Part shown: piece after piece, positions 21,858-44,807 of the stretch
Layout of the letters: the number at the start of each line of letters is the position of its first letter
Numbering within the stretch: the first letter of the stretch is position 1
DNA from: Citrobacter phage phiNP
Sequence record: OR565852
Strand: one strand, 5' to 3'
DNA length: 44,932 nt
Notes under the pieces: generated by a model
Database searches by the model: none
Told to the model about the DNA's origin: nothing
The model's input: the letters and a program-made list of their open reading frames with translations, nothing else
Translations under genes and position numbers: made by a program

Positions 21858-22562
21858 CTACTTCGCGGTGCGGAGAGCCTCCGCTATTGCCTGACTCAGT
21901 GCACCAGGTAGCAGCGCTTCCGCCATCTGGTTCGCTCTGTCCATGTATCCCAGTACTGGGCTGACAGGAAGCGCATCACCAAAGCGAATAAGGAGTTTCG
22001 GGGCTGGCTGCTTCATCCTGTCGCGGCGCATGCCGTTCGGAGAGCGTTTAGCCCGCTTTTTCCTCTTGCTCTTCTTTGGCTTCCTGCGCTGCCATACACC
22101 GTTAACACCGTTGACGTCACCGATGAAGGTATTCGGCTTTGCCTTTAGCTGGCTCATCTTGTTACGGGTCAGGTTGCCGTATTTGTTCAGCTTGATGTTC
22201 TTGGGGTTCAGCAGTGCTTTGCCGTTCAGCTTATGCTCTCCACCAAATTCGAAAGGCTCCAGGTATCCGGCTGCCGTATCGCGAACAAACACCCGGGCGC
22301 GCAGGTTGCTCTTTCTTGCCCCCACTGAGCCAACCGACTTAACGGTGAATGGTGTCGGATTATCCAGCCTGCGCTGGAATGCCGTCTTCTGCGCAGCCTC
22401 TATCTGTCGAACGACAGACGTCATAGCCTGGGCCGTGGCGAAAGGAATCTGCTTTTTTATCGCCTGCAGCTGGCGTGACAGGTCACGTAAATCAGCCATT
22501 GGACACCCCTTATAGTGCTGGTACCCATGGTAAATTACTGGTCCACGGTTTCGGGTTTCCAT
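21858..22562 (-). CDS. Hypothetical basic protein (about 213-234 aa) upstream of cos.
   Basis: Long ORF with a K/R-rich C-terminal region (RRKPKKSKRKKRAKRSP). It probably starts at the second Met, MADLRDL…. No family could be assigned by eye. Confidence 0.4.
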   Translation of the reverse strand: METRNRGPVIYHGYQHYKGCPMADLRDLSRQLQAIKKQIPFATAQAMTSVVRQIEAAQKTAFQRRLDNPTPFTVKSVGSVGARKSNLRARVFVRDTAAGYLEPFEFGGEHKLNGKALLNPKNIKLNKYGNLTRNKMSQLKAKPNTFIGDVNGVNGVWQRRKPKKSKRKKRAKRSPNGMRRDRMKQPAPKLLIRFGDALPVSPVLGYMDRANQMAEALLPGALSQAIAEALRTAK

Positions 22563-23175
22563 GAAAGCAGACTATTCGTGCATCGGGCGGCAACGTTCCA
22601 TTGCCTTCAGACCTTAATGAGTGCCATCCTGGCATTCCGGCGCACGCGATGTGCTGCTTATAGCTGACTATCTGGCCGGGATACTCGTTCTGCCAGATAA
22701 TCCGGGGCTGAAACACATCATCGAGAAAACCCTGGTCACCCCATTTCTTCCCAGGCTGCGTACACTCCTGCATGATGCGCACCGGCGCTTCCATGAACTG
22801 TTCCCATATCGACGCTTTATTTCCATGCGGTATTCGCATCACGGCAGATCCCACCGTTGAGGGATGATAGAAATCAGCCAGAATTCCCATGCGCTGCTCT
22901 GCCAGCAATTCCGTAATATCACCGGTAATAACCGTATCGAGATCAAGAAAGAAGATGTCGCTATCACACTGAGCCGGATCGAACAATTCGATCTTGCTCC
23001 ACCAGCCCGGCCAGCTCTGCTTCAGGGGAATAGTACGAACTCCCCGGATAGCCCTGTCGGAGAAGCACACAAAGTCATATCCACCAGGTAGCTGCCGTTT
23101 CAGCCATTTCACATGCTCTGGTGCATATGCGCCACCGCTGCGTAAAACCGTTGCGATTACGGGCTTATCTCTCAT
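22510..23175 (-). CDS. Putative nucleotide-sugar glycosyltransferase (GT-A-like, DXD motif).
   Basis: …DIFFLDLDTVITGDI… is a DXD motif in a hydrophobic context typical of GT-A enzymes. It sits in a three-gene cargo block. Confidence 0.4.
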   Translation of the reverse strand: MRDKPVIATVLRSGGAYAPEHVKWLKRQLPGGYDFVCFSDRAIRGVRTIPLKQSWPGWWSKIELFDPAQCDSDIFFLDLDTVITGDITELLAEQRMGILADFYHPSTVGSAVMRIPHGNKASIWEQFMEAPVRIMQECTQPGKKWGDQGFLDDVFQPRIIWQNEYPGQIVSYKQHIACAGMPGWHSLRSEGNGTLPPDARIVCFHGNPKPWTSNLPWVPAL

Positions 23176-23785
23176 CAGTCATATCCATCCATTCGGCAAG
23201 TGTCATTTGAGGTACGGAAGCTAGCTTTCCCAGAGAAACCACATTAATCTGAGGCCGGGCTGACGCGAAAAGTAACGGCAAATGAGACAAGTCTCGGCAC
23301 CAGCCGCCCTCCACACGCTCTTCGTCAGTCGCATCAACCCCCACCAGAGCTACATCGATAAATCCCAGGTGGTACGCCAGACCCAGCGCGCCGTAGGCAC
23401 TGTTACCAGAATGAATTTCGCCAGGGCTATTGCTCAGGCCGGGAGTACACGACCAGCGCCATAACCACCAGCCAGGTGATCCAACCGTTGCCGGTTCAGC
23501 GCCACGCGATGAGATTCGCCTCATCCTGATAACATGCGGCGGTAGCCCGATATCATCCGGAACAGCCGCCACATAGCAGATGTTCGGGCGCGGATTAGCC
23601 AGCCGGCTCATATTTTCCGGACTGGGATCCAGCGTGAAAAAATAATCGGTGCTCGGTAGCCAGTCGATAGCTCCATTCACCGCAATAATTGTCACCCCGT
23701 CCGGTGGACTGAACTCCGCCGCACTGGGACCGGATGCGACGATAATCGCTCTATTGCTGTTTCCAGCCTTTCGCGTTGAAAGCAT
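23165..23785 (-). CDS. GT42/DUF115 (Cst-II / Maf-like) putative glycosyl- or nonulosonate transferase, paralogue 1.
   Basis: N-terminal …NRAIIVASGPSAAEF…VTIIAVNGAIDW… resembles the Cst-II/MAF signature VIIAGNGPSL…DVFRCNQF. A downstream …ALVGVDATD… resembles …YLSGIDFY…. Confidence 0.45.
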   Translation of the reverse strand: MLSTRKAGNSNRAIIVASGPSAAEFSPPDGVTIIAVNGAIDWLPSTDYFFTLDPSPENMSRLANPRPNICYVAAVPDDIGLPPHVIRMRRISSRGAEPATVGSPGWWLWRWSCTPGLSNSPGEIHSGNSAYGALGLAYHLGFIDVALVGVDATDEERVEGGWCRDLSHLPLLFASARPQINVVSLGKLASVPQMTLAEWMDMTDER

Positions 23786-24294
23786 TTCAGAGAGGTATCC
23801 CGTGAACAGTTAACAATTTCCACCCCAGAGCAGGCCGCGGCCAGGCGGGAAAATTCACCCTGCCAGGCGATAACGCTTTCATGTGTCGGGTTTCGTAGTC
23901 GTCCGGCGGCATGGGCCCCATGCCAGTGAATCCCGCGCTTCAGTGAGCAGTCATAGCCCAACAGCAGAATCCGGCTGGCGCCCAGGGTGGCGGCTAACTC
24001 AATGGCTCGCTGCCCTGAGTTAAACGATCCCGGTATTGCTGTTTGCAGGTAGCTAATGCCGAAATGAATGGCGGTGTAACGGCTGCCACACCAGCGCGCC
24101 GCCGTTACAGGAATTTTGCTGGCGTGCTCCCGCCACCATGCAAAATCAGCCGCATAGATTGCCGAGCAGAACGGCGCCACACGCCATGAATCATTAACGG
24201 CAATAATGGGGATTTCAGCCTCATAGAGCAGCTGACAATCGGCAAGCGTCAGGGATGGCCCCGACGCTGCACAAGCGATGACGGAGTTTTTCAC
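23692..24294 (-). CDS. GT42/DUF115-like putative transferase, paralogue 2.
   Basis: …NSVIACAASGPSLTLAD…IPIIAVNDSW… and …ILLLGYDCS… place the same motifs at the same positions as in paralogue 1. Its 3' end overlaps paralogue 1 by 94 nt. Confidence 0.45.
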   Translation of the reverse strand: MKNSVIACAASGPSLTLADCQLLYEAEIPIIAVNDSWRVAPFCSAIYAADFAWWREHASKIPVTAARWCGSRYTAIHFGISYLQTAIPGSFNSGQRAIELAATLGASRILLLGYDCSLKRGIHWHGAHAAGRLRNPTHESVIAWQGEFSRLAAACSGVEIVNCSRDTSLKCFQRERLETAIERLSSHPVPVRRSSVHRTG

Positions 24295-24604
24295 TGTGTA
24301 TCCAAAATATATTCCGGGGAAAGTTGAAACTGGATGCTATCTGAAACAGATCGTTTATGCTGAGTTACCCCGGAAATAAGCCGGGTATTCAGAAGAAAAT
24401 AAAAAGCACTGTCGACGAGCCTCCGAAGAAGCCCGCCTGCACTGCCCGTTATGGTGTTACTCCAGATTATCCCTGGTTATCATAAGGGTTCAGCCCGCCC
24501 ATGCCGACACATGGGCGCACACAGCAACAAGGGGGATGGCTGCTGTAATGCCCTGTTCGCTGGGCCAGCGTCGGTTGCCACCCGATCTACGGCAGTGAAT
24601 TCAT

Positions 24605-24856
24605 TTAGCCCAGCTTTGCACGCACCAGCGCATCTTTCGCTTCAAGAAGTTTACGCAAACCAGCCGACTTCTCCGGGCCATTCGGCAGCATTGCATCCAT
24701 CAGCTTAGCCAGATCACCGATAGGCTTACTGACTTCCTGTAAATGCGGAGGTAAGTGCTCATACTCAAAATACTTAATGATCGGCGTGATGATAGTTGCC
24801 ATCGATAACCTCTGTTTGATTGTTGGATGCTCTAACTGAGTCATAAATACGTTCAC
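24605..24856 (-). CDS. Hypothetical protein (83 aa) downstream of Rz/Rz1.
   Basis: ORF at the end of the lysis cassette with no recognisable motif. Confidence 0.3.
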   Translation of the reverse strand: MNVFMTQLEHPTIKQRLSMATIITPIIKYFEYEHLPPHLQEVSKPIGDLAKLMDAMLPNGPEKSAGLRKLLEAKDALVRAKLG

Positions 24857-26245: not shown

Positions 26246-27298
26246 TTATTTTTCTGGTAACGCTCTGATTTCTTCAACGGTCTGGTTAAACCGCTCTGTT
26301 TCCAGCTCGACGCCAATAGCCTTACGGCCTAAATCGATCGCCGCTTTTAACGTGGAACCGGAGCCCATGAAGAAATCAGCTACCACATCCCCGGGTCTGC
26401 TGCTCGCGCTGATGATTTGCTTCAGCATGTCAGCAGGCTTTTCGCAGGGATGTTTGCCGGGATAAAACTGGACGGGTTTATGCGTCCATACGTCGGTATA
26501 TGGCACGGCCACCGACACGGCAAAATACCGCCGAAGGGATTTGTACTCCTCCAGCAGTTCGGAATATTTACGGTTCAGTGACTGGTATGTTGCCACCAGT
26601 TGGTGATGAGGCTGCGCCAGTTCGGCACGCTGATGCTTCTCGATAGCGATCCGGGTGAAAAGCTCCTGCAATTTGAGGTAATCCGCTTCACCCGGCAGCT
26701 GCCACTGGCTGGAACCAAACCAGTGCGAAACCATGTTCTTCTTACCAGTGGCCTCGGTGATTTGTTTCGAGGTAACGCCAAGGGATTCCCGGGCATTCTG
26801 AAAATAGGTAATAAGCGGTGTCAGCACATGCTGTTTGAGTTCACCACATTTTGCCGCGTAACCATCGTCTTTGGGCTTGCATGGCCCCTGATAGTGTTCA
26901 GCAAACAGAACACGCTCAGTGGCCGGGAAATACGCGCGCAGACTTTCTTTATTGCAGCCATTCCAGCGACCGCTCGGTTTAGCCCAAATGATGTGGTTCA
27001 GGATGCTGAAGCGGTCGCGCATTAAGATTTCAATATCTGCAGCCAGCCGGTGGCCGCAAAACAGGTAAAGGCTACCGGCGGGTTTCAACACTCGCCAGAA
27101 TTCAGCCAGGCAGCGATCGAGCCAGCGAAGATAGTCTTCATCCCCTTTCCACTGGTTATCCCATCCGTTTGGCTTCACCTTGAAGTAAGGCGGATCGGTA
27201 ACAATCAGGTCGATGGAGTTATCAGGAAGGGTGGCGATGTAATGCAGGCAGTCAGCGTTGATTAACTCAACACTGTTTATTTTTACAGTATTTTTCAT
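26246..27298 (-). CDS. DNA methyltransferase, beta-class N6-adenine/N4-cytosine family (DPPY … FxGSGS order). It is the first long gene of the late operon.
   Basis: Motif IV LIVTDPPYF lies near the N-terminus and motif I DFFMGSGSTL near the C-terminus. Confidence 0.7.
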   Translation of the reverse strand: MKNTVKINSVELINADCLHYIATLPDNSIDLIVTDPPYFKVKPNGWDNQWKGDEDYLRWLDRCLAEFWRVLKPAGSLYLFCGHRLAADIEILMRDRFSILNHIIWAKPSGRWNGCNKESLRAYFPATERVLFAEHYQGPCKPKDDGYAAKCGELKQHVLTPLITYFQNARESLGVTSKQITEATGKKNMVSHWFGSSQWQLPGEADYLKLQELFTRIAIEKHQRAELAQPHHQLVATYQSLNRKYSELLEEYKSLRRYFAVSVAVPYTDVWTHKPVQFYPGKHPCEKPADMLKQIISASSRPGDVVADFFMGSGSTLKAAIDLGRKAIGVELETERFNQTVEEIRALPEK

Positions 27299-27837: not shown

Positions 27838-28533
27838 TCACATTTCCAGCGCATTAGCCACTTCCAGCCCTTCGCGCCTGATGAGGATCGTTTGCAGCGC
27901 CTGAGTGTCAAGCTCGACGAATGCCGCTTTAAATCTCGCCCAGTGCGATGCATACACACGTAACCAGGTTGAACGATCCACAGACATCATTCGCGCCAGC
28001 GCCGCACCGGCGTATTCTTTATATGTGTCATTGCTTCTGGCCGCAGCCACCTCCTGCGCTGCCAGCCAGACAAGACCGACCAGTTTTTTCACTACCCGTG
28101 ATTGCAGCTTCTTCTCTACCCTGCAATTCTGAAACTCATTCCATACATGCTGGCACATCAGCGTCTGGTACCTGAAGTTCAGATCGAAACCGTAGCAGTA
28201 ACGGATCCATGCCTGCTGGTAGTCATCCAGTGAATTGATTACCCGGCGCCACGGCGCGTAACTAAATTCCAGATCCTGCATTGGCGGGAACGGTCGCCGC
28301 CGGCTTCTCGTTTCCAGCACATAAACAGGCGTGGTTAATGCCTTCACAAGCGAGTGTCCACAGCCTTCCCCGCCCTCCAGTTCGATAAGAGGCTGCCCGC
28401 AGCGGGGCGTTTTATTTTTGTCTGCCGGTGGATGTTCGCTAAACGCCTGCAGTTGCCCCTTTGTCCCTTCAGATAAATTCGCCAGGGCGCGCTTTACTTC
28501 TATACGGGTATATTCAATGGCCTGTAAGTTCAT
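27838..28533 (-). CDS. Putative late-gene antiterminator Q.
   Basis: A 231 aa protein at the canonical position, downstream of the nin-like genes and directly upstream of the pR'/tR'-like elements and lysis cassette. Sequence alone is not diagnostic. Confidence 0.5.
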   Translation of the reverse strand: MNLQAIEYTRIEVKRALANLSEGTKGQLQAFSEHPPADKNKTPRCGQPLIELEGGEGCGHSLVKALTTPVYVLETRSRRRPFPPMQDLEFSYAPWRRVINSLDDYQQAWIRYCYGFDLNFRYQTLMCQHVWNEFQNCRVEKKLQSRVVKKLVGLVWLAAQEVAAARSNDTYKEYAGAALARMMSVDRSTWLRVYASHWARFKAAFVELDTQALQTILIRREGLEVANALEM

Positions 28534-28554: not shown

Positions 28555-29646
28555 TTACGCTTTAACAATTACGCCGATCGCCAGCGCCCGATCCAGAAAA
28601 CGAAACAGCAGTTCCAGCTGTGTGCCATATTTCTGCTCGAACGCCGCTACATCGGCATGCAATTTGTCGTGGCACTCTCTGCACAGAGGGAACACGAACA
28701 GGTCATGGGCTTTGGTAGCAGTGCCACCCATCCCATGACCGATAACATGATGCGGATCGTCTGCCGGACGGCGACAACACTCGCAGGGCTGACTTTTAAC
28801 CCAGCGCGTATACTTCTCATTCTCCCAGCGGCGGCGCTTAGGCCGTAACATGAACGACTCCGGTGATTCAGGATCTGCGCTCAATGCAATAACCCTTGGC
28901 TGCTGCTCCTGCATTACCTGCTGATTTTCCTGTGGCCTGCACCTTTTTAACGATCCAGCCGTTTTTATCCTCCTCTGCAGGGCGACGGTTGGTCGGTTAT
29001 CTGCGGCAATAATGTCGCTTTCTTTATATACAGATGGGAACGGTTCATAGGGCATCTGCATCACTCTGGCTGCCAGTTCTTCCGGAATGGCATCTGCCAC
29101 ACCGACATAAATAGCCCACCAGCACAGCTCAGCGATCGACAATTCCCGCTCGCGATTAAACCGAAGGCCGACCAGCACGGTATCAATGATCCAGTCAATA
29201 ACGTTACGGCGCGCTATACCAGCCAACAGATCGGTTGACTGCTCACGAAGTTTGTTATCGCAGTGCCAGCAAAGCATCATCGCGCCCGGGGCGTGTCGCA
29301 TGGTCACCAGCTCATGATGGTGATAATCCGAGTGCGGGTACTGACATTCACCGATATTCCGCTCAAGCCAGTGATCCAGCCCGGAGAGACTACCCGCAGC
29401 ACGGATCACCCTCTCATCAGTGAAGAATGGGATCAGCGCTTCATCCTCCGCCAGCGGCTGCCGGGCATCAGGAACACGGCCGGTTGACAGCCTGGCCATG
29501 TTCTCCGGTTCGGACTCCACCAGCACGCGCCCCGCGGAGAAAAGGCGCATTAACTCTTTGCCCGGTTTGAGCAGTACCACGCCAAGACGTGGCACAACTT
29601 CAGGGGTTAACAGCGCTCTCATGCAACCTCCCGCTGCTGGTTGCAT
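28555..29646 (-). CDS. NinG/DUF968-like protein with a C-terminal HNH/zinc-binding motif.
   Basis: The C-terminus reads …CECCRRPADDPHHVIGHGMGG…CRECHDKLH…. It occupies a nin-region position. Confidence 0.45.
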   Translation of the reverse strand: MQPAAGGCMRALLTPEVVPRLGVVLLKPGKELMRLFSAGRVLVESEPENMARLSTGRVPDARQPLAEDEALIPFFTDERVIRAAGSLSGLDHWLERNIGECQYPHSDYHHHELVTMRHAPGAMMLCWHCDNKLREQSTDLLAGIARRNVIDWIIDTVLVGLRFNRERELSIAELCWWAIYVGVADAIPEELAARVMQMPYEPFPSVYKESDIIAADNRPTVALQRRIKTAGSLKRCRPQENQQVMQEQQPRVIALSADPESPESFMLRPKRRRWENEKYTRWVKSQPCECCRRPADDPHHVIGHGMGGTATKAHDLFVFPLCRECHDKLHADVAAFEQKYGTQLELLFRFLDRALAIGVIVKA

Positions 29647-31379
29647 AACTCGGGCAGGTTGGCTTCTACCAGCGCACGGGCAAACGGGGGCGGAACGGCG
29701 TTACCGCAGCGCGCTACCTGCTTGTCTTTTGCATAGCGCTGGCCGCGATAATCACGATCGATAATGTAACCTTCAGGAAAGCCCTGGGCCTTATACAACT
29801 CATGAGGCTGCAACATGCGCATGCCAATATCGACGATCTGGTAGTCGGCACCATCAACCGTTACCAGGCCGAAGCGATCATTGGTTGTGACGGTTCCCAG
29901 CGGTTCATCCAGCGATACGCCGCTTTTTTCATTTCCGTAGTACTTCATCAGGAAGGCGCGAACCTCTCCGATATGCAGACCGCCGGCGGTCACCGTAGGC
30001 ATGGGCTGATCCACTTTTCGACCGTCTTTGCAGGTACCGCGCAGATGAACCAGGTGTGAGGTCACAACAGCATGGTGATCAGTGGTCGTAACGGTATGCG
30101 CAGGTGCATCCATAGCGGCACCCGGCCCCGTATAATTACCGCCGAAGTGTTTCGCCAGAAAGGTGGTCACCAGCTGCGACTTTCCACCACCGCCAGCGGT
30201 TACTGTTCCATTGGGTTCATCAGCGCCGTGTCCGGTACTGTTACCAAACTGGCGGGCTATCATTGGCGCCACCAGGCAGGCGCGGGACTCTTTTAACACG
30301 GTGTGGGCCGGTTTATTTATCGCCCGCGGCTTCGCCTGATATTCGCTACCACCATTACCGGCGATAAACGGGGTAACGACAGCGTATCCATGGGTTTTGG
30401 TAATAGTCTGCAGCGGACTATCAATGCCCTGCCCACGAAAGCAGTCATATGCCGTGCGGCTGCTGGTGTGATTACACTTCACAATAAACGGTGTCGGGTT
30501 GTTCAGCACAAACCGCTCAATACCACGCGCAATGCGCTTCAGCGTATTTTCCGCCAGCAGCTTTGGGCGCTCAAAAATGCTCTGGCAGGGGATTGACCAG
30601 TCGATACACTCCGCCGCGGTACGCCATGGCGCCAGCCTGCCGCTCTGAACTTCCAGCGATTTAGGATCGCCATGTGTTGGCTCTGGCCAGTGAATTTCCT
30701 CACCATCACAGCGCATGACCATGAAGAATCGCTTGCGGATCGTCGGCGCGCCGAAATCGCAGGCTCGCAGTTCGCGATAATCGATGCCGTAGCCCAGCCC
30801 GTTAATAAGGCGCTGCGCCTGCTCGCTGCCTTTAGGTACAGACAGGAACTCGCACACCTCAGACAGGGCGGGATGATCCGCAGGTATGCCGGTGGATAGC
30901 ATGCCAACAAACGCCGCGAAGGTTTCGCCCGCGCGGGATGGATCCGGGCGCATTTCGTCTGCCAGCAGCGGCCCCCACGTTTTGAACTCCTCCACGTTCT
31001 CCAGCATCATGACACGCGGGCGCTTCGCCAGCGCCCAGCGTACTACTACCCACGCCAGACCGCGAATCTCTTTTTTTACCGGCTTAGCACCCTTCGCCTT
31101 TGAGAAGTGGCGGCAATCAGGGCTAAACCAGGCCAGGCCGACCGGATTACCACCAGTGGCCGCCAGCGGATCAACGTCAAACACGGACTCGCAGTAATGC
31201 AGGGTATCGGGGTGGTTAGTTTTGTGCATAGCGATCGCGTTTTCATCGTGGTTGATGGCAATATCCACGCTGCGCCCGATCGCCAGCTCGATCCCGGTAC
31301 TCGCGCCGCCGCCACCAGCAAAGTTATCAACGATAATTTCACGCATTGACGGCTCCCTGCATGCTGTAGACCAGACCAC
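29619..31379 (-). CDS. C5-cytosine DNA methyltransferase (Dcm-like) with an expanded, repeat-containing variable region. It is probably multispecific.
   Basis: Motif I IVDNFAGGGGAS, motif IV FSPDCRHFS, motif VI MLENV and motif X CGNAVPP are all present. The variable region has about six repeats of the TRD-like element xPxxT(V/I)T(A)xGGG…(L/V)V: DSPLQTITK, NKPAHTVLK, DEPNGTVTAGGGG, DAPAHTVTTT, DQPMPTVTAGG and DEPLGTVTTN. Confidence 0.75.
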   Translation of the reverse strand: MVWSTACREPSMREIIVDNFAGGGGASTGIELAIGRSVDIAINHDENAIAMHKTNHPDTLHYCESVFDVDPLAATGGNPVGLAWFSPDCRHFSKAKGAKPVKKEIRGLAWVVVRWALAKRPRVMMLENVEEFKTWGPLLADEMRPDPSRAGETFAAFVGMLSTGIPADHPALSEVCEFLSVPKGSEQAQRLINGLGYGIDYRELRACDFGAPTIRKRFFMVMRCDGEEIHWPEPTHGDPKSLEVQSGRLAPWRTAAECIDWSIPCQSIFERPKLLAENTLKRIARGIERFVLNNPTPFIVKCNHTSSRTAYDCFRGQGIDSPLQTITKTHGYAVVTPFIAGNGGSEYQAKPRAINKPAHTVLKESRACLVAPMIARQFGNSTGHGADEPNGTVTAGGGGKSQLVTTFLAKHFGGNYTGPGAAMDAPAHTVTTTDHHAVVTSHLVHLRGTCKDGRKVDQPMPTVTAGGLHIGEVRAFLMKYYGNEKSGVSLDEPLGTVTTNDRFGLVTVDGADYQIVDIGMRMLQPHELYKAQGFPEGYIIDRDYRGQRYAKDKQVARCGNAVPPPFARALVEANLPELCNQQREVA

Positions 31380-32220
31380 CAGCCACGGTGATTATTTCGC
31401 TGGTGGGCATACGCTCAAGCCAGAGCTGATTGATGTTCGCCTTCAGCTTGTTCTGCTGGGCCAACTCCAGAGAATCCGCTCCCTCAACCTGATTGAATAC
31501 CAGGCCAACCTCCAGCGGCCAGATACGCGACTCCACTTCTGGCTGTCCCAAGCCAGCAGGCATAACGTCTTCCACCGGGGCTGGCGGCACCACTTTTTCC
31601 GCGGCAAATTGGGCCAGCGACATAAATGCCCGCCCCTTAGCCTCTAGATCACTGCGATGAATGTAGCTGAAACGCTCGCCCCGCCATGTCTTATCGAATA
31701 CCACTATGGCGCCAGCGAAAAATGCGCTGGTAGGCTGCTGTTTCTCGTCTGCCGGGATAAACCATGCAGGCAGGTCGAAGCCAATGCGGCCACGGATGAA
31801 AACAATATGATCAGCATCTTCAGGCCACCATGTTTCACTAGGTGCCGCTTTGATGAGGAACACATAGCGACCGCCCTTCTCACGCATGGCAGAGGCATAG
31901 CTCATGATATGACTCATGCCGGTGATCGCCTGCTTACCGTCGTATTGCGATCGGCTATAGGGCGGATTGCCGAACGCGGCGCCACCGATGGCGATCAGCA
32001 TTTCCGACCAATCCTGTGTCAGAGCGTTATCTTCGGCGGTGTACCAGACCGGGCATTTGGCGTTACTGTCGTCGGCGAACAAATCCAGCATCAGCGGCCC
32101 AAACATCGCATTGATGCCCCAGAACAACAGTTCCGGCGTGCGCCACTGATCGCCAACTTCTTTTAACTCGTGGACTGGCTTGCTACGTAGTTCAGCCAGC
32201 GCCAGGCAGTATTTATTCAT
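31339..32220 (-). CDS. Phage Dam-family (PF05869-like) N6-adenine DNA methyltransferase.
   Basis: …DQWRTPELLFWGINAMFGPLMLDLFADDSNAKCPVWYTAEDNAL…AFGNPPYSR… gives the TP…LF, NAKC and NPPYS signatures. The gene is translationally coupled to the replication gene (ATGA). Confidence 0.7.
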   Translation of the reverse strand: MNKYCLALAELRSKPVHELKEVGDQWRTPELLFWGINAMFGPLMLDLFADDSNAKCPVWYTAEDNALTQDWSEMLIAIGGAAFGNPPYSRSQYDGKQAITGMSHIMSYASAMREKGGRYVFLIKAAPSETWWPEDADHIVFIRGRIGFDLPAWFIPADEKQQPTSAFFAGAIVVFDKTWRGERFSYIHRSDLEAKGRAFMSLAQFAAEKVVPPAPVEDVMPAGLGQPEVESRIWPLEVGLVFNQVEGADSLELAQQNKLKANINQLWLERMPTSEIITVAGGLVYSMQGAVNA

Positions 32221-38867: not shown

Positions 38868-39190
38868 ACGAACAAACTACAGTTAAACACCTCCATTTCT
38901 ACGGTGCCAGCGATGATCTGCTGGAATGCGAAGGCGCGATCCGCGAGGAGATTGGTTGCTATAACTCTCCAGGCATCTATCACCTCAAATCCGCCGAGGG
39001 TGAAATGCAGGTTGTCGGTTATTACCTCGACTCCGGGCTGTGGAGCATCGGAATCAGCCAGGTCGCCGAAGATACGCCGCTGCCAGCGTGGCCCGTCACT
39101 TACGCCATGCATGAGCGTGGTTACAGTGTCCAGCTCACCATCACTGTGCCGGACGACGCCATTCTGGTTTTGTCAGAGGAAGATGAATGA
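38864..39190 (+). CDS. Hypothetical protein (108 aa), in the yfdT position.
   Basis: Coupled ORF in the early-left operon. Confidence 0.3.
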   Translation: MNEQTTVKHLHFYGASDDLLECEGAIREEIGCYNSPGIYHLKSAEGEMQVVGYYLDSGLWSIGISQVAEDTPLPAWPVTYAMHERGYSVQLTITVPDDAILVLSEEDE

Positions 39191-39918
39191 GCATTACCCT
39201 GCATAACGCCGACTGCTTCGATGTTTTTCCGACGATTGCCAGCGGTTCCGTAGACATGGTGTGTGCGGATATTCCCTACGGTACCACGCAGTGCTGCTGG
39301 GATTCGGTGCTTGACCTCGAGGTGATGTGGCATGAACTGTACCGCATCGCCAAGCCGTCAGCGGCAATTGTCCTGTTTTCGGCTCAACCGTTTACCGCGG
39401 TGCTGGTCGGCAGCAACCTGGCGGACTGGCGATCCGAGTGGATTTGGGAAAAAGGCAACGCCACCGGCTTCCTTAATGCCAAAAAACAGCCGTTGCGTGC
39501 CCATGAAAATATAGAGGTGTTTTATCGTCGCCAGCCGACATACAACCCGCAGTTTACCCATGGTCATGCGCGCAGAACATCGAAGCGCAAAACCGTCAAT
39601 TCGGAGTGCTACGGCAAAGCGCTGACGCTGACTAAGTATGACTCAACCAGCCGGTACCCGCGCGATGTGCAGTTTTTCTCGAGTGACAAGCAAACCGGTA
39701 ATTTCCATCCCACCCAGAAGCCGCTGGCGCTGGTTCAGTACCTGATCGAGACCTACAGCAACCCCGGCGATACGGTGCTGGATTTCACAATGGGAAGCGG
39801 TACCGCAGGAGTCGCCTGCCTGCGTGTCGGGCGCTGCTTTATTGGCATTGAGAAAGACACCTCAATATTTCAGGTCGCGCGTCATCGTATAGGGACTAAG
39901 CAGGAGCATGCAGCATGA
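39187..39918 (+). CDS. DNA methyltransferase, beta-class (DIPY variant of D/NPPY … FxGSGT), probably N6-adenine.
   Basis: Motif IV is …VCADIPYGT… and motif I is …DFTMGSGTAG…. Between them is an ParB-less 243 aa core. The protein is expressed from the early-left operon. Confidence 0.65.
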   Translation: MSITLHNADCFDVFPTIASGSVDMVCADIPYGTTQCCWDSVLDLEVMWHELYRIAKPSAAIVLFSAQPFTAVLVGSNLADWRSEWIWEKGNATGFLNAKKQPLRAHENIEVFYRRQPTYNPQFTHGHARRTSKRKTVNSECYGKALTLTKYDSTSRYPRDVQFFSSDKQTGNFHPTQKPLALVQYLIETYSNPGDTVLDFTMGSGTAGVACLRVGRCFIGIEKDTSIFQVARHRIGTKQEHAA

Positions 39919-40721: not shown

Positions 40722-40928
40722 ATGCTGAGCCTCGATTGTGTTCCCATCTCAACTTATTGCAAAGAGACAGGCGAAACTCCTGATGCGATCAACAAGCGCG
40801 TACAGCGCGGTGTGTGGCGTGAAGGGGTTCAGGTGCTGAAAGTCGAAGGCGTTAAGGAGAGATGGATAGATCTTAGTGAGGTTGCAAAATGGGCCAGACA
40901 GAATCGCCTAAACTCCCGCGCGGCGTAA
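40722..40928 (+). CDS. xis: Excisionase-like protein (Xis).
   Basis: A 68 aa basic protein immediately upstream of and overlapping int. A GGAGA RBS is present. Sequence begins MLSLDCVPISTYCKETGETPDAINKRVQRGVW…. Confidence 0.5.
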   Translation: MLSLDCVPISTYCKETGETPDAINKRVQRGVWREGVQVLKVEGVKERWIDLSEVAKWARQNRLNSRAA

Positions 40929-42055
40929 CCATCAGGAAACATCGCAACGGTCAAACCATCAATATTACTTTTACATATAAAGGGGTGAAATGCCGTGAGC
41001 CTCTTTCTAATCTGGACGTAACCCCTAAAAATATCAAATACGCCGAGCGCACACTCGGCGAAATCCATAACAAGATCGAAAGGGGAACGTTTGTTTACGC
41101 GGAATACTTTCCCCGTTCTACCCGATTAAAAATTTTCGGAAACGCTGCCGCAGGAAAAACGGTGAAGATGTATCTGGATGAGTATCTGGTGATCTGCGAA
41201 ACGAGGAAGCTTTCCCCTTCGACAATAGGCGGGTACAAGAAATGCCGAAGCGCATTGTCATCACTTCATATTTATCCTGCAAGTGAGTTGACGCCGGCTG
41301 CATTGAAGACATGGATCCAGAACCAGAAAACGACATTGAAGACCATCCGAAACCAGTTGTCATTCCTGCGTTCTGCATTGGATGAAGCAGTGACAGATGG
41401 TGTGCTTCAGATTAACCCTGTATCTCTGGTAACAGCCTCACGATACCAAAGTGATAAATCAGAGGCAGAAAGTAGTTATGTGGTTGATCCGCTATCACCA
41501 GCAGAAGTTGATGCTTTGCTCTCTGCTACTGGCAATAAGCAGTGGGAGAATCTTTTCCGGTTCGCGATACAAACAGGGCTGCGTAGTTCCGAATTGTGTG
41601 CTCTTCGTTGGCGTGATATCGACTTTGTAGGGAAGACTGCCCATATCCAGAGCGCCAGTGTTGTTGGTGTGATCAAAGGGACCAAGACAAAAGCAGGTAC
41701 CCGTAAAGTTGAACTCACAGATGAAGCAATGTCGGCTCTGATAAATCAGAAACCGTTCACGTTCATGAAGGGCGCTACTGTCTTTGAGGATCCAAAGACC
41801 AATAAGCCGTGGGCAAGTGCTGATGCAATTAGAAAAAAGGCATGGGTGCCGACATTGCGAAAGGCTGGTATTCGGTACAGAAACCCATATCAGACTAGAC
41901 ATACATTCGCCACATGCCATATCAGCCGGGGAACAAACTTGTTCTGGCTTGCGACTCAAATGGGACATAAAGGCCCAGAGATGCTTTTCCGTCACTACGG
42001 CTCATATCTGAAGGAATATGATGGACAAACAAGCCTGAAGAAGATAAAAATATAA
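40889..42055 (+). CDS. int: Tyrosine integrase (lambda Int family, IntS-like).
   Basis: The catalytic region …RHTFATCHISRGTNLFWLATQMGHKGPEMLFRHYGSY… carries the R…HxxR…Y signature. The gene is transcribed towards attR. Confidence 0.8.
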   Translation: MGQTESPKLPRGVTIRKHRNGQTINITFTYKGVKCREPLSNLDVTPKNIKYAERTLGEIHNKIERGTFVYAEYFPRSTRLKIFGNAAAGKTVKMYLDEYLVICETRKLSPSTIGGYKKCRSALSSLHIYPASELTPAALKTWIQNQKTTLKTIRNQLSFLRSALDEAVTDGVLQINPVSLVTASRYQSDKSEAESSYVVDPLSPAEVDALLSATGNKQWENLFRFAIQTGLRSSELCALRWRDIDFVGKTAHIQSASVVGVIKGTKTKAGTRKVELTDEAMSALINQKPFTFMKGATVFEDPKTNKPWASADAIRKKAWVPTLRKAGIRYRNPYQTRHTFATCHISRGTNLFWLATQMGHKGPEMLFRHYGSYLKEYDGQTSLKKIKI

Positions 42056-42058
42056 TCC

Positions 42059-43846
42059 ATGTCTGAATTATTGGCCGCAATTTGTGGCCATTTCATGGAA
42101 CAAGGTACAAACATGGCAAATCCAATAACCAAACTAAAAAAAATAAACGTTGTAAAATTTCGAGGACTAAAAAATATAAATATAGAATTTGGTTCGCGAC
42201 TAACTGTTATTTGTGGTAAAAACGGCACATCTAAATCGACAATTCTTGGTATTATCGCCCAAATTTTTAGTTTTACAAAAGATCTGTCTAAGAACCCCGA
42301 GGTTGATTTAACACAATATAAGACATTAACTAATGGCACCTTCAAGTCAGCTTTCAGTGAACATTTTAGACTTTCAGAACAATTTGATACTGCAGGTTCA
42401 ATGGAAGTCAGGATTAGTGTTTATGATGGTGCATCTAACAAACATCTTGAAAAGCTAACATTGGGTCTATACAGCTCCAGTGACAGGGATAAATCAAGGC
42501 CAATAGTCAGGGGCAATGATTCCATACCGGGGAAAAACCAAAGTAGAAACGTCACTCATCCAGTTATTTTTCTAAGCTTAGCAAGACTTCTCCCTATTAC
42601 TCTACGGACTGATTACTCAACAAGGGATGTTCAGTATATCAATGAAAACGCAGATGATATAAGAATAATGAGCAATCAACTCTTACTTAAGAATAATGGG
42701 TGCTCAGTAACAGCCACGAAAGGGACGATCGATTCAATGGTCGTACACGGCGATAATTACGACCATCAATCAGTCTCTGTTGGTGAGGATAATGTTGGAC
42801 AATTAATTCAAGCAATATTTTCCTTTAAAAGGCTAAAAGAACTTTATGACGATTATCATGGAGGTATTTTATTAATTGATGAAGCGGACGCAGGTCTTTT
42901 CCCTGCTGCTCAGTTAGAATTAATTGACATTCTAGCTAAAGCAGCTAAAAAATATGACTTGCAAATAATCATGACTTCTCACTCACCATTAATAATAGAA
43001 GATATTTTCAATCGTTCCAAACAAGATGCCAACGGATTTAAAACAATATATCTGACAGATACTTATGGTGATATTAAAACAAAAGACAATCTATCATGGG
43101 CCGATATCAATGCTGATTTGCATGTTGAAACTGTAAAAATAAATGATGAGATTAGCCTTCCAAAAGCCAACGTATATTTTGAAGATAAAGAAGGCTTCGA
43201 TTTTTTCAAACAATTGATAATTGATAGAAGAATAAACAGAATATTGAATCCATTAGGAAACATAAATATTAGTTGTACTGCTATCCTAGATTTAATGGCT
43301 AGAAAAGTCCCTGAGTTTACTAACAAAAGCCTAGTTGTCTTAGACGGTGATGTTGCTCTCGATAACAGTGACAATGCTAAAAAAGCGAAAAAAGAGAGAA
43401 GCTTATGCTTGCTTCCAGGCATTCTTCCCCCAGATCAAATGATTTTTGAATTCTTATATAACTTACCTCCAGACGATATATATTGGAACAATAAAAATAG
43501 ATTTACAAAAGCAGTATTTATGAAAATAACAAAAGACATAATTACAACATTAAAAATAAGTAACTATCCTATTGATTTACTAAATTCTATAGAGAATTAT
43601 AAAAAATCAAACAAAAACCATGGCGGAGTGGTTAGAAAACTATTTAAAGATTTTGTCCATACGCCTGAGTTCCTAGCACAAGTAAAAGGGCGAGTTAAAG
43701 ATAATCCTTATCGATATTGGGTCGAGAAACACCCCGTAGAATCCGATAATTTCAAGCATGAATTAATCAAAAACCTTAAAATTATTATGACAAATGGACA
43801 TGGCGTTGACTCTGCTACCATCACTTCGTATCTGTCTGGCAACTAA
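42059..43846 (+). CDS. OLD-family ABC-type ATPase with a C-terminal TOPRIM-like nuclease domain (putative anti-phage or abortive-infection nuclease) in an AT-rich cargo cassette.
   Basis: Walker A is …TVICGKNGTSKSTILGII… and Walker B is …GGILLIDEADAGLF…. The ABC H-loop is …MTSHSPLII…. The C-terminal half carries …VYFEDKEGFDF… and …LVVLDGDVALDNSD…, which fit the Toprim Glu and DxD elements. The ATG lies 3 nt after the int stop. The gene is markedly AT-rich. Confidence 0.5.
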   Translation: MSELLAAICGHFMEQGTNMANPITKLKKINVVKFRGLKNINIEFGSRLTVICGKNGTSKSTILGIIAQIFSFTKDLSKNPEVDLTQYKTLTNGTFKSAFSEHFRLSEQFDTAGSMEVRISVYDGASNKHLEKLTLGLYSSSDRDKSRPIVRGNDSIPGKNQSRNVTHPVIFLSLARLLPITLRTDYSTRDVQYINENADDIRIMSNQLLLKNNGCSVTATKGTIDSMVVHGDNYDHQSVSVGEDNVGQLIQAIFSFKRLKELYDDYHGGILLIDEADAGLFPAAQLELIDILAKAAKKYDLQIIMTSHSPLIIEDIFNRSKQDANGFKTIYLTDTYGDIKTKDNLSWADINADLHVETVKINDEISLPKANVYFEDKEGFDFFKQLIIDRRINRILNPLGNINISCTAILDLMARKVPEFTNKSLVVLDGDVALDNSDNAKKAKKERSLCLLPGILPPDQMIFEFLYNLPPDDIYWNNKNRFTKAVFMKITKDIITTLKISNYPIDLLNSIENYKKSNKNHGGVVRKLFKDFVHTPEFLAQVKGRVKDNPYRYWVEKHPVESDNFKHELIKNLKIIMTNGHGVDSATITSYLSGN

Positions 43847-43925: not shown

Positions 43926-44807
43926 ATGCGTTTTAACACCCCACTTCGTTATCCTGGCGGCAAAGGCAAGCTTTCTAATTTCATGCTTCGGATTATTGAA
44001 GATAATAAGCTTTCGCCTATACATTATGCAGAGCCATATGCTGGGGGTGCTGGTTTAGCGCTGAAGCTGTTACACTTAAATGTAGCTGAAAAAATCATTC
44101 TTAATGATATTAATATCTCAGTTTATGCTTTTTGGCACAGTGTATTAAATAATGCAGATCATTTATGTGCTTTAATTGAGGATACTGAAGTCACAATGGA
44201 TGAGTGGTTCAAACAGAAAGAAATAATTAATCATCCAAGAGACCATGATATGCTAACAATTGGTTTTTCTACCTTTTTTCTTAATAGAACAAATCGTTCT
44301 GGAATATTAAAAGGCGGTGTAATTGGTGGTAAAAATCAAGAAGGGCAATGGAAACTTGATGCTCGTTATAACAAGAGCGATTTAATTTCTCGGATTCAGA
44401 AAATATCAAAAAACCGTGAAAGAATAGATTTGTATAACATGGATGCAATTGATTTCATAAAAAAAATAGTTGTTCAATTGCCTAAAAAATCATTAACATA
44501 TTTAGATCCGCCATATTATATAAAAGGTAAGGGATTATATATCAATCATTATGAACATAGTGACCATGTTAATGTTGCAAAAGTAGTGCAGCATGATATT
44601 AAAACACCGTGGATTGTTTCTTACGATAACACTCCTGAGATCCAAGGTATGTATAAGGCATCATCATTAGTGTATGGAATAAACTACAGTGCTCAAGATC
44701 GATATAAGGGCTCAGAAGTGATGTTCTTCAGTAAACGATTGAAAGTCTTTAAAACCGATGATCCAACTAAGGTAAAAGCACCTACCAATAAAAATGCTAT
44801 GAGCTAG
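43926..44807 (+). CDS. Dam-like (D12 class, alpha) N6-adenine DNA methyltransferase in an AT-rich cargo cassette.
   Basis: …LRYPGGKGKL… matches the Dam KWAGGK motif. Motif I is …AEPYAGGAGL… and motif IV is …YLDPPYY…. A TTGACA -35 element lies upstream at 43906. Confidence 0.7.
   Translation: MRFNTPLRYPGGKGKLSNFMLRIIEDNKLSPIHYAEPYAGGAGLALKLLHLNVAEKIILNDINISVYAFWHSVLNNADHLCALIEDTEVTMDEWFKQKEIINHPRDHDMLTIGFSTFFLNRTNRSGILKGGVIGGKNQEGQWKLDARYNKSDLISRIQKISKNRERIDLYNMDAIDFIKKIVVQLPKKSLTYLDPPYYIKGKGLYINHYEHSDHVNVAKVVQHDIKTPWIVSYDNTPEIQGMYKASSLVYGINYSAQDRYKGSEVMFFSKRLKVFKTDDPTKVKAPTNKNAMS

What the first reader, a model, noticed from the sequence alone, without database searches (positions are those of the whole stretch)
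22510..24294. Three-gene glycosyltransferase-like cargo block between the lysis cassette and cos, containing two overlapping GT42/DUF115-like paralogues.
Two adjacent paralogous proteins carry the N-terminal (I/V)IA…SGPS(L/A)…IIAVN… signature. This is shared by Campylobacter Cst-II-type GT42 sialyltransferases and MAF/DUF115 proteins, which are nonulosonic-acid transferases. The paralogues overlap by 94 nt. A third protein in the block has a GT-A DXD motif (FFLDLDTVITGDI). This late-region position is where lambdoid phages carry lysogenic-conversion morons. A phage-borne GT42/DUF115 set in an enterobacterial prophage suggests sialic-acid- or pseudaminic-acid-type decoration of LPS, capsule or a surface protein. 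Less likely, it modifies virion or DNA. Together with the hexapeptide O-acetyltransferase at 1281-1835, the prophage carries two separate candidate surface-glycan modification loci.
Basis: partly seen in the sequence, partly recalled or inferred. Interest (0 to 1): 0.6.

Follow-up and report, generated by a model that had tools for sequence, protein, structure and literature searches.

The report
Phage P1-type three-enzyme glycosylation cassette
The three genes are real and are the counterpart of phage P1's uncharacterised pmgO-pmgP-pmgQ genes: a sugar-transferase cassette found in many unrelated phages of Gram-negative bacteria, usually among the virus-particle genes, so it more likely decorates the phage particle than the bacterial surface.

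Summary
Three co-oriented minus-strand genes lie at 22510-24294: A (200 aa), B (206 aa) and C (221 aa). The A/B overlap of 94 nt is real.

The lysogenic-conversion reading is only weakly supported. The block is the orthologue of P1 pmgO-pmgP-(ppp)-pmgQ, with the same order and a 103-nt overlap. In P1 these genes are C1-repressed, late-transcribed and dispensable.

The cassette recurs in many unrelated phages. It sits in or beside head and packaging genes, sometimes with extra transferases or sugar-type methyltransferases.

Around it in the window there is:
- no promoter or terminator signal above chance
- no membrane segment
- no sialic or pseudaminic acid pathway among the roughly 30 ORFs scanned

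My best reading (about 0.4) is a late, cytoplasmic cassette that glycosylates a virion protein from host sugar nucleotides, plausibly CMP-Kdo and a UDP-hexose. LPS modification (0.25) stays open. It is a new member of a catalogued family whose function has never been tested.

The parts
23692..24294 (-). Gene A: PmgO-like, 200 aa. Minimal single-domain protein with a Maf/GT42/MptE-like fold; predicted CMP-ulosonic-acid-type glycosyltransferase.
23165..23785 (-). Gene B: PmgP-like, 206 aa. Remote homologue of A with the same fold; predicted second transferase that works with A.
22510..23175 (-). Gene C: PmgQ-like, 221 aa. GT8-like GT-A glycosyltransferase, predicted retaining hexosyltransferase, with D78-L-D80 and F204-H-G-N-P-K-P-W211.
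   Evidence: ORF. phrog_1962 'glycosyltransferase' at E 1.7e-95. 43% identical to P1 PmgQ and P7 HdmD. The family profile hits the Skp1 alpha-galactosyltransferase 6mw5 at E 2.1e-5, the GT8 entry 5gvv at 0.0036 and glycogenins at about 0.02, aligning both the DxD and the HxxxPKPW stretch. D78, D80, H205, G206, P208 and P210 are invariant.
23692..23785 (-). 94-nt dual-coding overlap. It encodes the last 31 codons of A (including helix 177-186) in one frame and the first 31 codons of B (strand 12-16 and the S-G-P-S motif) in another.
   Evidence: The equivalent pmgO/pmgP overlap in P1 is 103 nt. Overlaps of 4 to about 100 nt occur in other loci.
24295..24604 (-). 310-nt gap between the small ORF downstream of the spanin gene (24605-24856) and gene A. 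It is the only place where a private promoter could sit.
   Evidence: Sequence. The one promoter-like match (24507-24479, 9 of 12 positions) is within chance expectation: 4 found against 5.0 expected in the region.
21858..22562 (-). Context gene directly downstream (phrog_1924 'minor tail protein', weak neck-like match). The PHROG match starts at M22, so the likely start is 22499, about 10 nt after the stop of C. TerS and TerL follow.
   Evidence: No homologue of this gene is present in the other cassette-bearing loci, so it is not part of the conserved cassette.

Best explanation
The block is a mobile, three-enzyme glycan-building cassette, orthologous to phage P1 pmgO-pmgP-pmgQ. It is transcribed with the late (lysis, head and packaging) genes.

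Shown here:
- It encodes three soluble proteins.
- C has the GT8 hallmarks (DxD plus HxxxPKPW).
- A and B are remote homologues whose models look most like the catalytic core of Maf and Cst-type CMP-ulosonic-acid transferases.
- Gene order A-B-C and A/B overlap recur across many unrelated phages.
- The cassette is variably joined by another GT-A enzyme or a SAM methyltransferase. A different cassette type pairs A with an ORF011-like protein and a methyltransferase. In fusions A is joined to a sugar-type (TylF-like) O-methyltransferase or to the ORF011-like protein.

Inferred:
- During lytic growth the three enzymes act in the cytoplasm.
- C adds a hexose from a UDP-sugar. A and B add acidic sugars from a CMP-sugar. 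In enterobacterial hosts that lack sialic and pseudaminic acid pathways, the only such donor is CMP-Kdo.
- The acceptor is a newly made virion protein, most likely in the head. This would parallel the glycosyltransferases in mycobacteriophage structural operons that glycosylate capsid and tail-tube subunits.
- The modification is dispensable for plaque formation in the laboratory, as in P1. It would matter for virion surface properties such as stability, adsorption to non-host material or immune recognition.
For: Family and fold:
- Searches give the PHROG and P1/P7 matches. Searches give the fold and profile evidence.

Synteny with P1:
- The order is the same and the overlap is 103 nt.
- The A-B-C order holds in 80 or more loci.

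Regulation and dispensability in P1:
- The P1 genes lie behind late promoter LPpmgL. A C1-controlled operator (Oppp) and a predicted sigma-70 promoter sit just upstream.
- The P1 genes are dispensable (PMC10695390; PMC9024508).

The window:
- The window shows no promoter or terminator excess, no hydrophobic segment and tight coupling to the next late gene.

Placement among virion genes in phages with different terminase and portal families:
- Directly after the major head gene in D3, L005/L010, L018 and TvV-S20. L012 is probably the same, though its head gene was not called.
- After the head-tail adaptor in PAJU2, where the A homologue is annotated 'structural protein'.
- After the portal gene in L008.
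- Before TerS in the window, L002 and L014.
- Next to the PmgS-like head-morphogenesis gene in P1-likes.

Cassette composition:
- Accessory genes are glycan-tailoring types: Methyltransf_23 and Nucleotid_trans.
- A is fused to a TylF-type sugar O-methyltransferase, to a second domain of the same fold (B-type in P0373), and to the ORF011-like partner.

Nearest structures:
- The best structural and profile matches are protein-glycan enzymes: Maf, the Skp1 galactosyltransferase and glycogenin.

Host range and precedent:
- All 72 phage records with an A hit have proteobacterial hosts where a host is recorded, apart from three Tetraselmis viridis virus records. That fits dependence on Gram-negative sugar nucleotides.
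- Precedent for virion glycosylation comes from Freeman et al. 2023, as described in PMC12619734.
Against: - No glycan has been shown on any virion of a cassette-bearing phage.
- PmgO, PmgP and PmgQ do not appear in the main text of the P1 virion proteome paper, and that paper does not mention glycosylation.
- The cassette is the only thing the window shares with other cassette-bearing phages. A virion acceptor would therefore have to be recognised across unrelated capsid sequences. A universal host acceptor would explain that mobility more simply.
- A lone C homologue sits at a classic lysogenic-conversion site between int and the tail-fibre genes in phage Chlobot.
- In the window the block occupies the lysis-to-cos position where lambda carries morons, and a 310-nt gap precedes A.
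- Foldseek did not recover Maf or Cst.
- MptE and thiamine diphosphokinases score nearly as well for B.
- The donor assignment (CMP-Kdo, UDP-hexose) is inference only.
Confidence: 0.4

Rival explanations
1. Host-envelope modification. The enzymes add sugars to LPS core, O-antigen or capsule precursors at the inner face of the membrane. This would change the receptor landscape, giving lysogenic conversion, superinfection exclusion, or protection of progeny from adsorbing to debris.
For: - GT8 and GT42-like families are typical LPS and LOS enzymes (established knowledge).
- The enzyme set resembles the set that builds an LPS core: a Kdo-type transferase and a GT8 hexosyltransferase (inference).
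- A lone C homologue lies between int and tail-fibre assembly/lom in lambdoid phage Chlobot.
- The window position, lysis to cos, is a lambda moron site.
- A 310-nt gap upstream of A could hide a promoter.
- A universal host acceptor would explain why the cassette works in unrelated phages.
Against: - No promoter or terminator signal above chance, and no compositional break.
- The P1 orthologues are C1-repressed and late-transcribed, so they are silent in lysogens.
- In most lineages the genes are embedded within head and neck gene runs. In D3 they are even split between two sites inside that run. D3's known seroconversion genes lie elsewhere (own knowledge).
- No membrane protein or flippase partner of the Gtr type, and no TM segment.
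- P1 knockouts have no plating phenotype.
Confidence: 0.25
2. Glycosylation of another cytoplasmic target during lytic growth, such as a host protein, in the way Maf modifies flagellin. The purpose would be to redirect or disable a host function or defence.
For: - The proteins are soluble and small, with no acceptor-binding domains.
- The closest structures act on proteins.
- The genes are dispensable on laboratory strains, as many counter-defence genes are.
- In P1 a protein phosphatase gene (ppp) is inserted within the cassette.
Against: - No match to known defence or counter-defence models.
- Persistent placement among structural genes rather than early host-takeover genes.
- Accessory sugar methyltransferases and extra transferases suggest an elaborate glycan, not a single inactivating sugar.
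Confidence: 0.12
3. A and B are not glycosyltransferases. They would be MptE/thiamine-diphosphokinase-like pyrophosphokinases or non-catalytic partners, and only C would transfer sugar.
For: - Foldseek's only high-probability hits for A are thiamine pyrophosphokinases.
- The Pfam family PF01973 is named for the kinase, and the window proteins score below its threshold.
Against: - The conserved motifs fit what I recall of GT42 motifs (from memory, not tested): S-G-P-S, V-N, N-S-G, G-x-D, then an invariant His.
- The family is fused or adjacent to glycan-tailoring enzymes, not to folate or thiamine genes.
Confidence: 0.1
4. DNA hypermodification. The enzymes would glycosylate phage DNA bases to evade restriction, as in T4 or the 5hmC-glycosylating phage clusters.
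For: - Phage DNA glycosyltransferases that attach Kdo-like and heptose sugars to 5hmC exist (10.1101/2023.12.21.572611).
- The prophage encodes a C5-cytosine methylase and several other DNA methylases.
Against: - No 5-methylpyrimidine dioxygenase or hydroxymethylase was found among the ORFs scanned.
- The 586-aa C5 methylase is covered end to end by methylase models.
- P1 deletion mutants show no change in antirestriction.
- P1 DNA is not known to be hypermodified (own knowledge).
- The cassette lies with head genes, not replication genes.
- The folds differ from known DNA glycosyltransferases (describes GT-B, T4-like enzymes).
Confidence: 0.08

Closest known systems
Phage P1 PmgO-PmgP-(Ppp)-PmgQ, equal to P7 HdmB-HdmC-HdmD (PHROGs 4603, 2111, 1962)
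   Same: Orthologous proteins at 41%, 57% and 43% identity. Same order and strand, with the same type of A/B overlap (103 nt against 94 nt). Lytic-cycle, late-operon setting.
   Different: P1 carries a phosphatase gene between B and C, and the cassette lies in the pmg operon of a plasmid prophage. Here the three genes are contiguous, between the lysis genes and the terminase genes of an integrated myovirus-type prophage. No member has a tested function. The P1 genes are known only to be dispensable.
Maf flagellin glycosyltransferases (DUF115 / PF01973; PDB 5mu5)
   Different: Maf is a protein of about 630 aa whose N- and C-terminal domains flank the catalytic core (one search gives the chain length; the domain layout is own knowledge). 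A and B are bare 200-aa cores. There are no flagellin or pseudaminic/legionaminic acid synthesis genes nearby. The Pfam score is below threshold.
GT42 sialyltransferases (Campylobacter Cst-I/Cst-II, Haemophilus Lic3A)
   Different: No sequence-level match to any solved GT42 chain, even at E 10, and no CST-I Pfam hit. The usual hosts make no CMP-sialic acid, so the donor is probably different.
GT8 retaining glycosyltransferases (Skp1 alpha-galactosyltransferase, glycogenin, LPS core enzymes of the LgtC/WaaJ type)
   Same: C shares the DxD and the C-terminal H..KPW metal- and donor-binding motifs. It aligns over about 170 residues.
   Different: Only weak Pfam PF01501 signal. C is shorter than the matched solved chains (221 aa against 263-501). 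The acceptor is unknown.
Mycobacteriophage virion glycosylation (Che8, Corndog and others; Freeman et al. 2023)
   Same: Glycosyltransferases, sometimes with a methyltransferase, placed within virion structural gene clusters. They are dispensable for growth (Freeman et al. as cited in PMC12619734; remaining details from own knowledge).
   Different: Different enzyme families and Gram-positive-type hosts. Glycosylated virion proteins are demonstrated there. Here they are only inferred.
Lysogenic-conversion glycosylation loci (GtrABC, D3 seroconversion genes, lambda-type morons)
   Same: Phage-borne sugar-modifying genes that are dispensable for growth. The window position between lysis genes and cos resembles a moron site.
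   Different: No own promoter or terminator, no membrane components, and not expressed from a lysogen-active promoter in P1. The cassette is usually embedded in head gene clusters.

Membership tests
P1 PmgO/PmgP/PmgQ cassette (PHROGs 4603, 2111, 1962) | Significant full-length similarity of each protein to the respective family | tested here: met
   E 6.6e-55, 1.6e-95 and 1.7e-95, each covering nearly the whole profile. tblastn identities of 41%, 57% and 43% to P1.
P1 PmgO/PmgP/PmgQ cassette (PHROGs 4603, 2111, 1962) | Colinear A-B-C order on one strand, with A overlapping B | tested here: met
   Window overlap 94 nt, P1 overlap 103 nt. The same order holds in essentially all 80 or more loci that contain B.
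Maf / DUF115 / MptE-like (Pfam PF01973) | Score at or above Pfam's gathering cut-off (34.6 bits) | tested here: not met
   A scores 23.5 bits and B 20.2 bits. Many close homologues carry a precomputed PF01973 hit, and the fusion P0373 reaches 44.6 bits.
Maf / DUF115 / MptE-like (Pfam PF01973) | Fold of the central Maf catalytic domain | tested here: met
Maf / DUF115 / MptE-like (Pfam PF01973) | Multidomain Maf architecture and linkage to flagellin and pseudaminic/legionaminic acid genes | tested here: not met
   A and B are single-domain proteins of about 200 aa. No such genes were found among the window ORFs scanned.
CAZy GT42 (Cst-I/Cst-II-type sialyltransferases) | Sequence membership (CST-I Pfam family or a match to solved GT42 chains) | tested here: not met
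   No such Pfam hit. Family profiles find no GT42 chain in the PDB even at E 10.
CAZy GT42 (Cst-I/Cst-II-type sialyltransferases) | Sialyltransferase-type fold | tested here: met
CAZy GT42 (Cst-I/Cst-II-type sialyltransferases) | Use of CMP-Neu5Ac, and a catalytic His base | not testable with these tools
   Invariant His residues follow the G-x-D strand: H123/H125/H128 in A and H168 in B. Their equivalence to the Cst-II catalytic His was not established. Donor specificity needs an enzyme assay.
CAZy GT8 (retaining GT-A) | DxD motif and C-terminal H-x(n)-K-P-W motif | tested here: met
   D78-L-D80 and F204-H-G-N-P-K-P-W211. D78, D80, H205, G206, P208 and P210 are invariant in 36 sequences. Both motifs align to 6mw5.
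CAZy GT8 (retaining GT-A) | Profile-level sequence similarity to GT8 members | tested here: inconclusive
   The family profile against the PDB gives 6mw5 at E 2.1e-5, 5gvv at 0.0036 and glycogenins at about 0.02. Pfam PF01501 gives only E 0.31 for the window protein, and 9 of 36 relatives match at E up to 1 (best 0.033).
Lysogenic-conversion moron | Own promoter and terminator, expression in the lysogen, compositional contrast | tested here: not met
   Promoter- and terminator-like sites are at chance level. C abuts the next late gene. GC is 52-57% against 51-61% in neighbouring genes. The P1 orthologues are C1-repressed and late. Expression itself was not testable.
Phage DNA-base glycosylation systems | A pathway making a hydroxymethylated base (dioxygenase or hydroxymethylase) plus a DNA glycosyltransferase | tested here: not met
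   The early region holds methylases only, including a C5 methylase, and no dioxygenase. Not every small ORF in the window was scanned.
Phage virion glycosylation systems | Glycosyltransferase genes inside the virion structural gene cluster | tested here: met
   Seen in relatives. In the window the cassette lies just upstream of the terminase genes, in the late operon.
Phage virion glycosylation systems | Glycan covalently attached to a virion protein | not testable with these tools
   Needs mass spectrometry or glycoprotein staining of purified virions.

The most novel reading that the evidence does not exclude
The PmgO/PmgP/PmgQ-type cassette is the first virion-glycosylation system of phages of Gram-negative bacteria, present in textbook phages such as P1 and D3.

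Its two minimal 200-aa Maf-like enzymes would be a new class of Kdo (CMP-ulosonic acid) transferases. They would decorate capsid proteins with LPS-core-like sugars taken from the host's own CMP-Kdo and UDP-hexose pools.
Probability: 0.22. Interest if true: 0.75.

Novelty: new member of a known kind. Interest (0 to 1): 0.5.

Why it matters
The genes are not exotic. Orthologues sit in P1, P7, D3 and PAJU2. A-type homologues occur in jumbo phages of Klebsiella, Caulobacter and Xanthomonas. The A family alone has about 5,900 clusters at 50% identity.

Yet no member has a known substrate.

If the cassette glycosylates virions, it extends a phenomenon shown so far only in mycobacteriophages to the main model phages of Gram-negative bacteria. 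That bears on phage therapy, through immune recognition and stability, and on transduction tools.

It would also define a minimal new type of acidic-sugar transferase.

If it instead alters LPS, it is an unrecognised receptor-modification system.

Either answer is within reach. This prophage is probably phiNP of Citrobacter rodentium, which makes virions and lysogenises E. coli K-12. P1 deletion mutants already exist.

Tried and rejected
- **Nucleotide search.** Megablast of the block against the phage and E. coli collections found nothing. Only protein-level searches were informative.
- **Profile searches of A and B against PDB sequences.** These gave only noise, such as sugar kinase and phage CI.
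- **NCBIfam and PADLOC.** No hit for A, B or C.
- **The ORF011-like partner of A in PAJU2, D3 and Eowyn.** I guessed a heptosyltransferase-like protein from its N-terminal G-x-G-D motif. Pfam and a PDB profile search gave nothing, so I dropped the idea.
- **A conserved acceptor encoded next to the cassette.** The flanking genes of the window (the 83-aa ORF, the phrog_1924 gene, TerS, TerL, portal and the major head protein) have no homologues in other cassette-bearing loci.
- **Capsid C-termini.** Three HK97-type capsid proteins from cassette-bearing phages end in short Ser-rich tails. The window's capsid protein does not. This is too weak to use.
- **Cluster look-ups to get taxonomy for distant or fused relatives.** They returned no organism names.
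- **The Freeman et al. paper.** It is not held in the library.
- **tmRNA.** None is in the window. Identity with phiNP therefore rests only on matching gene content.
Full report

Yes. One search lists three co-oriented minus-strand ORFs at exactly the stated coordinates:
- A, 23692-24294, 200 aa, GTG start
- B, 23165-23785, 206 aa
- C, 22510-23175, 221 aa

A and B overlap by 94 nt, and B and C by 11 nt. The quoted motifs are all present: ..AASGPSL..IIAVN.. in A, ..VASGPSA..IIAVN.. in B, and FFLDLDTVITGDI in C.

These are genes, not chance ORFs. They match PHROG families 4603, 2111 and 1962 at E 6.6e-55, 1.6e-95 and 1.7e-95. Each has hundreds to more than a thousand homologues.

Identical proteins are recorded from Citrobacter rodentium on a 5,346,827-bp contig. 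NCBI annotates B with a start 30 codons downstream (P0121, 176 aa). That start would delete the first strand and the S-G-P-S motif, which are conserved across the family. No alternative start exists upstream of residue 12. The 94-nt overlap is therefore genuine.

**2. What are the proteins?**

A and B are not similar by BLASTP (E 0.032). Their family profiles do align at 97.5% probability, E 5.7e-12. They are old homologues, not a recent duplication.

| Match | A | B |
|---|---|---|

SteA, thiamine pyrophosphokinases and GT29 sialyltransferases follow.

Several lines are weaker. Pfam PF01973 matches only below threshold. Sequence profiles find no solved relative. Foldseek does not recover Maf or Cst. 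The fold assignment is sound, but the choice between transferase and diphosphokinase rests on context.

C has no Pfam hit. Its family profile matches the Skp1 alpha-galactosyltransferase 6mw5 at E 2.1e-5, a GT8 entry at 0.0036 and glycogenins at about 0.02. The alignment covers both the invariant D78-x-D80 and the invariant F-H-G-x-P-K/R-P-W stretch. This is the GT8 signature.

None of the three proteins has a hydrophobic segment. They are soluble cytoplasmic proteins.

**3. The key identification**

tblastn against phage genomes shows that A, B and C are the counterparts of phage P1 PmgO, PmgP and PmgQ, which are HdmB, HdmC and HdmD in P7. Identities are 41%, 57% and 43%.

The P1 record shows the same order. 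pmgO overlaps pmgP by 103 nt, and a phosphatase gene (ppp) is inserted before pmgQ. The genes lie downstream of the late promoter LPpmgL. A predicted sigma-70 promoter guarded by a C1 repressor operator (Oppp) also lies upstream. In P1 they are therefore lytic-cycle genes, silent in the lysogen.

CRISPRi and single-gene deletions found them non-essential, with no plaque or antirestriction phenotype (PMC10695390; PMC9024508). 'Putative morphogenetic function' was only ever a guess from their location.

**4. A conserved mobile cassette**

I scored profiles of the three families on 87 fetched loci. A-B-C colinearity on one strand holds in essentially every locus that contains B.

Variations exist:
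- ppp inserted (P1-likes)
- a second GT-A gene inserted or appended (L008, L005; PF03407-like)
- a SAM methyltransferase inserted or replacing C (L012, L018)
- order B-C-A (L014)

A second cassette type pairs A with an unrelated protein of about 280 aa plus a Methyltransf_23 enzyme. It occurs in PAJU2, D3, Eowyn and probably Mulvp2.

The exhaustive search finds 5,887 clusters (50% identity) related to A. Among them are natural fusions:
- A to a second domain of the same fold (B-type in P0373)
- A to the 280-aa partner
- A to a TylF-type sugar O-methyltransferase
- A to Ig-like domains (a single case)

Several of these fusions recur on many contigs. They say that A works together with B or the other partners, and that the product is a tailored glycan.

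Nothing else in the window is shared with other cassette-bearing phages: not TerS, TerL, portal, capsid or the flanking small genes. The cassette moves as a unit.

**5. Where the cassette sits**

The window holds a complete myovirus-type prophage. On the minus strand, the late operon reads:
- Q antiterminator (27838-28533)
- DNA methylase
- holin, endolysin and spanins (26068 down to 24774)
- an 83-aa ORF
- A, B, C
- a phrog_1924 gene
- TerS, TerL, portal, protease and capsid
- sheath, tape measure, baseplate and fibres

Around the cassette, promoter-like and terminator-like sites are no more frequent than in shuffled sequence. C ends about 10 nt before the likely start of the next gene, or overlaps it if the longer start is used. 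GC content is close to that of neighbouring genes. The only loose point is a 310-nt gap upstream of A.

In other phages the cassette or its A-containing variant lies:
- directly after the major head gene in D3, L005/L010, L018 and TvV-S20; L012 looks the same, but its head gene was not called
- after the head-tail adaptor (PAJU2, where the A homologue is annotated 'structural protein')
- after the portal gene (L008)
- just before the terminase genes (the window, L002 and L014)
- beside a PmgS-like head-morphogenesis gene (P1-likes)
- after the tail genes (CcrBL9)

In D3 the parts are even split between two positions within the head-to-neck gene run.

One clear exception exists. A lone C homologue in lambdoid phage Chlobot lies between int and the tail-fibre/lom genes, which is a classic moron site.

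**6. Most likely mechanism**

Shown:
- three soluble enzymes of glycosyltransferase type
- conserved as a unit
- transcriptionally tied to late and virion genes
- dispensable in P1

Inferred:
- The enzymes build a short glycan in the cytoplasm during lytic growth.
- C transfers a hexose from a UDP-sugar.
- A and B transfer CMP-activated acidic sugars.

P1 and probably this phage grow on E. coli K-12, which makes no CMP-sialic, CMP-pseudaminic or CMP-legionaminic acid (established knowledge). No synthesis genes accompany the cassette in the flanks examined. The only available donor of that class is therefore CMP-Kdo. Sialyltransferase-like enzymes that use CMP-Kdo are known in plants (own knowledge).

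All 72 phage records with an A hit have proteobacterial hosts where a host is recorded, apart from three Tetraselmis viridis virus records. That is consistent with this donor but does not prove it.

For the acceptor I favour a virion protein, probably in the head. The reasons are the persistent placement among head genes, the protein-directed nature of the nearest structural relatives, and the precedent of mycobacteriophage virion glycosylation (cited in PMC12619734). My confidence is about 0.4.

**7. Rivals**

- **Envelope (LPS or capsule) modification, about 0.25.** It is kept alive by the Chlobot case, by the LPS-like enzyme families, by the lysis-to-cos position in this prophage, and by the argument that a cassette hopping between unrelated phages should act on something common to all hosts. 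Against it stand the P1 regulation, the lack of moron signals, and the embedding in head gene clusters.
- **A host-protein target, about 0.12.** It cannot be excluded.
- **DNA glycosylation, about 0.08.** Phage enzymes that put Kdo-like sugars on 5hmC exist, and the prophage has a C5 methylase. However, no dioxygenase or hydroxymethylase was found, the methylase is covered end to end by methylase models, and P1 mutants keep normal antirestriction.

**8. Comparison with known systems, and novelty**

The block is a member of the catalogued but functionally untested PmgO/PmgP/PmgQ families. RefSeq already labels the P1 genes 'alpha-2,3-sialyltransferase' and 'glycosyltransferase'.

It works like a Maf/GT42-type plus GT8-type glycan assembly line. 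It is not a member of GT42 by sequence. It does not reach the DUF115 threshold, and it lacks Maf's architecture and genomic context.

What this analysis adds:
- the link to P1 and D3
- the recognition of a mobile cassette with variable tailoring partners
- its systematic association with virion genes
- the donor argument

The novelty class is a new member of a known kind. Interest is moderate (0.5). It would be considerably higher if virion glycosylation or Kdo transfer is confirmed.

**9. Identity of the prophage**

The gene content matches the published cargo list of C. rodentium phage phiNP, a myovirus that forms virions and lysogenises E. coli K-12 (PMC6456863; PMC3072379). The matching items are a contractile tail, an acetyltransferase near the left end, a GntR-like replication-region protein, and ATPases near the right end. 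The tmRNA attachment site is not inside the window, so this identification is probable rather than proven.

Noticed in passing
window 42059-43846 (+) and 43926-44807 (+): A low-GC (about 33%) gene pair sits just beyond the integrase (40889-42055). It comprises an AAA_15/AAA_21 ATPase and a D12-class adenine methylase. The methylase matches the PD-Lambda-5_B defence model at E 2.8e-123. This looks like a PD-Lambda-5-type anti-phage system carried at the prophage end.
   Followed up: partly
window 26246-27298, 29619-31379, 31339-32220, 39187-39918, 43926-44807: The prophage encodes five DNA methyltransferases: two of N6_N4 type, one Dam type, one 586-aa C5-cytosine type and one D12 type. That is an unusually heavy methylation load for a 40-kb phage.
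   Followed up: partly
window 1281-1835 (+): A hexapeptide-repeat acetyltransferase lies on the strand opposite the late operon, next to the tail-fibre assembly gene, in a low-GC stretch (37-39%). A HicB-like antitoxin lies upstream at 846-1256. Unlike the three-gene block, this one does look like a classic moron.
   Followed up: partly
window 23165-23785; L088 (phage D3) 5858-6409: Public annotations truncate these genes. NCBI's C. rodentium model of B starts 30 codons late. D3 orf7 (the A homologue) starts at least 31 codons late, with a spurious 'orf6.5' annotated over the missing part. In both cases the nucleotide-binding G-P-S motif is cut off.
   Followed up: yes
protein names; L001 pmgM note: The product name 'norphogenetic protein' is given by NCBI and UniRef to PmgP-type proteins. 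It matches a typing error, 'putative norphogenetic function', in the original P1 GenBank record and has probably propagated from there.
   Followed up: no
window 21858-22562 (-): A gene matching a 'minor tail protein' PHROG (E 1.8e-63), with weak neck-protein similarity and a very basic stretch (KPKKSKRKKRAKR), sits alone between the cassette and TerS, far from the other tail genes. It has no Pfam, NCBIfam or PADLOC match and no counterpart in other cassette-bearing loci.
   Followed up: partly
L003 236-1678: In the closest relatives of the cassette (74% identity, metagenome contigs), the gene just upstream encodes a protein with a colicin pore-forming domain.
   Followed up: no
P0366 (metagenome protein, 556 aa): One A-family protein carries C-terminal Ig-like domains (Big_1, Big_13), a feature typical of virion surface proteins in phages. 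It is a singleton on one 12-kb contig, so it could be an artefact.
   Followed up: partly
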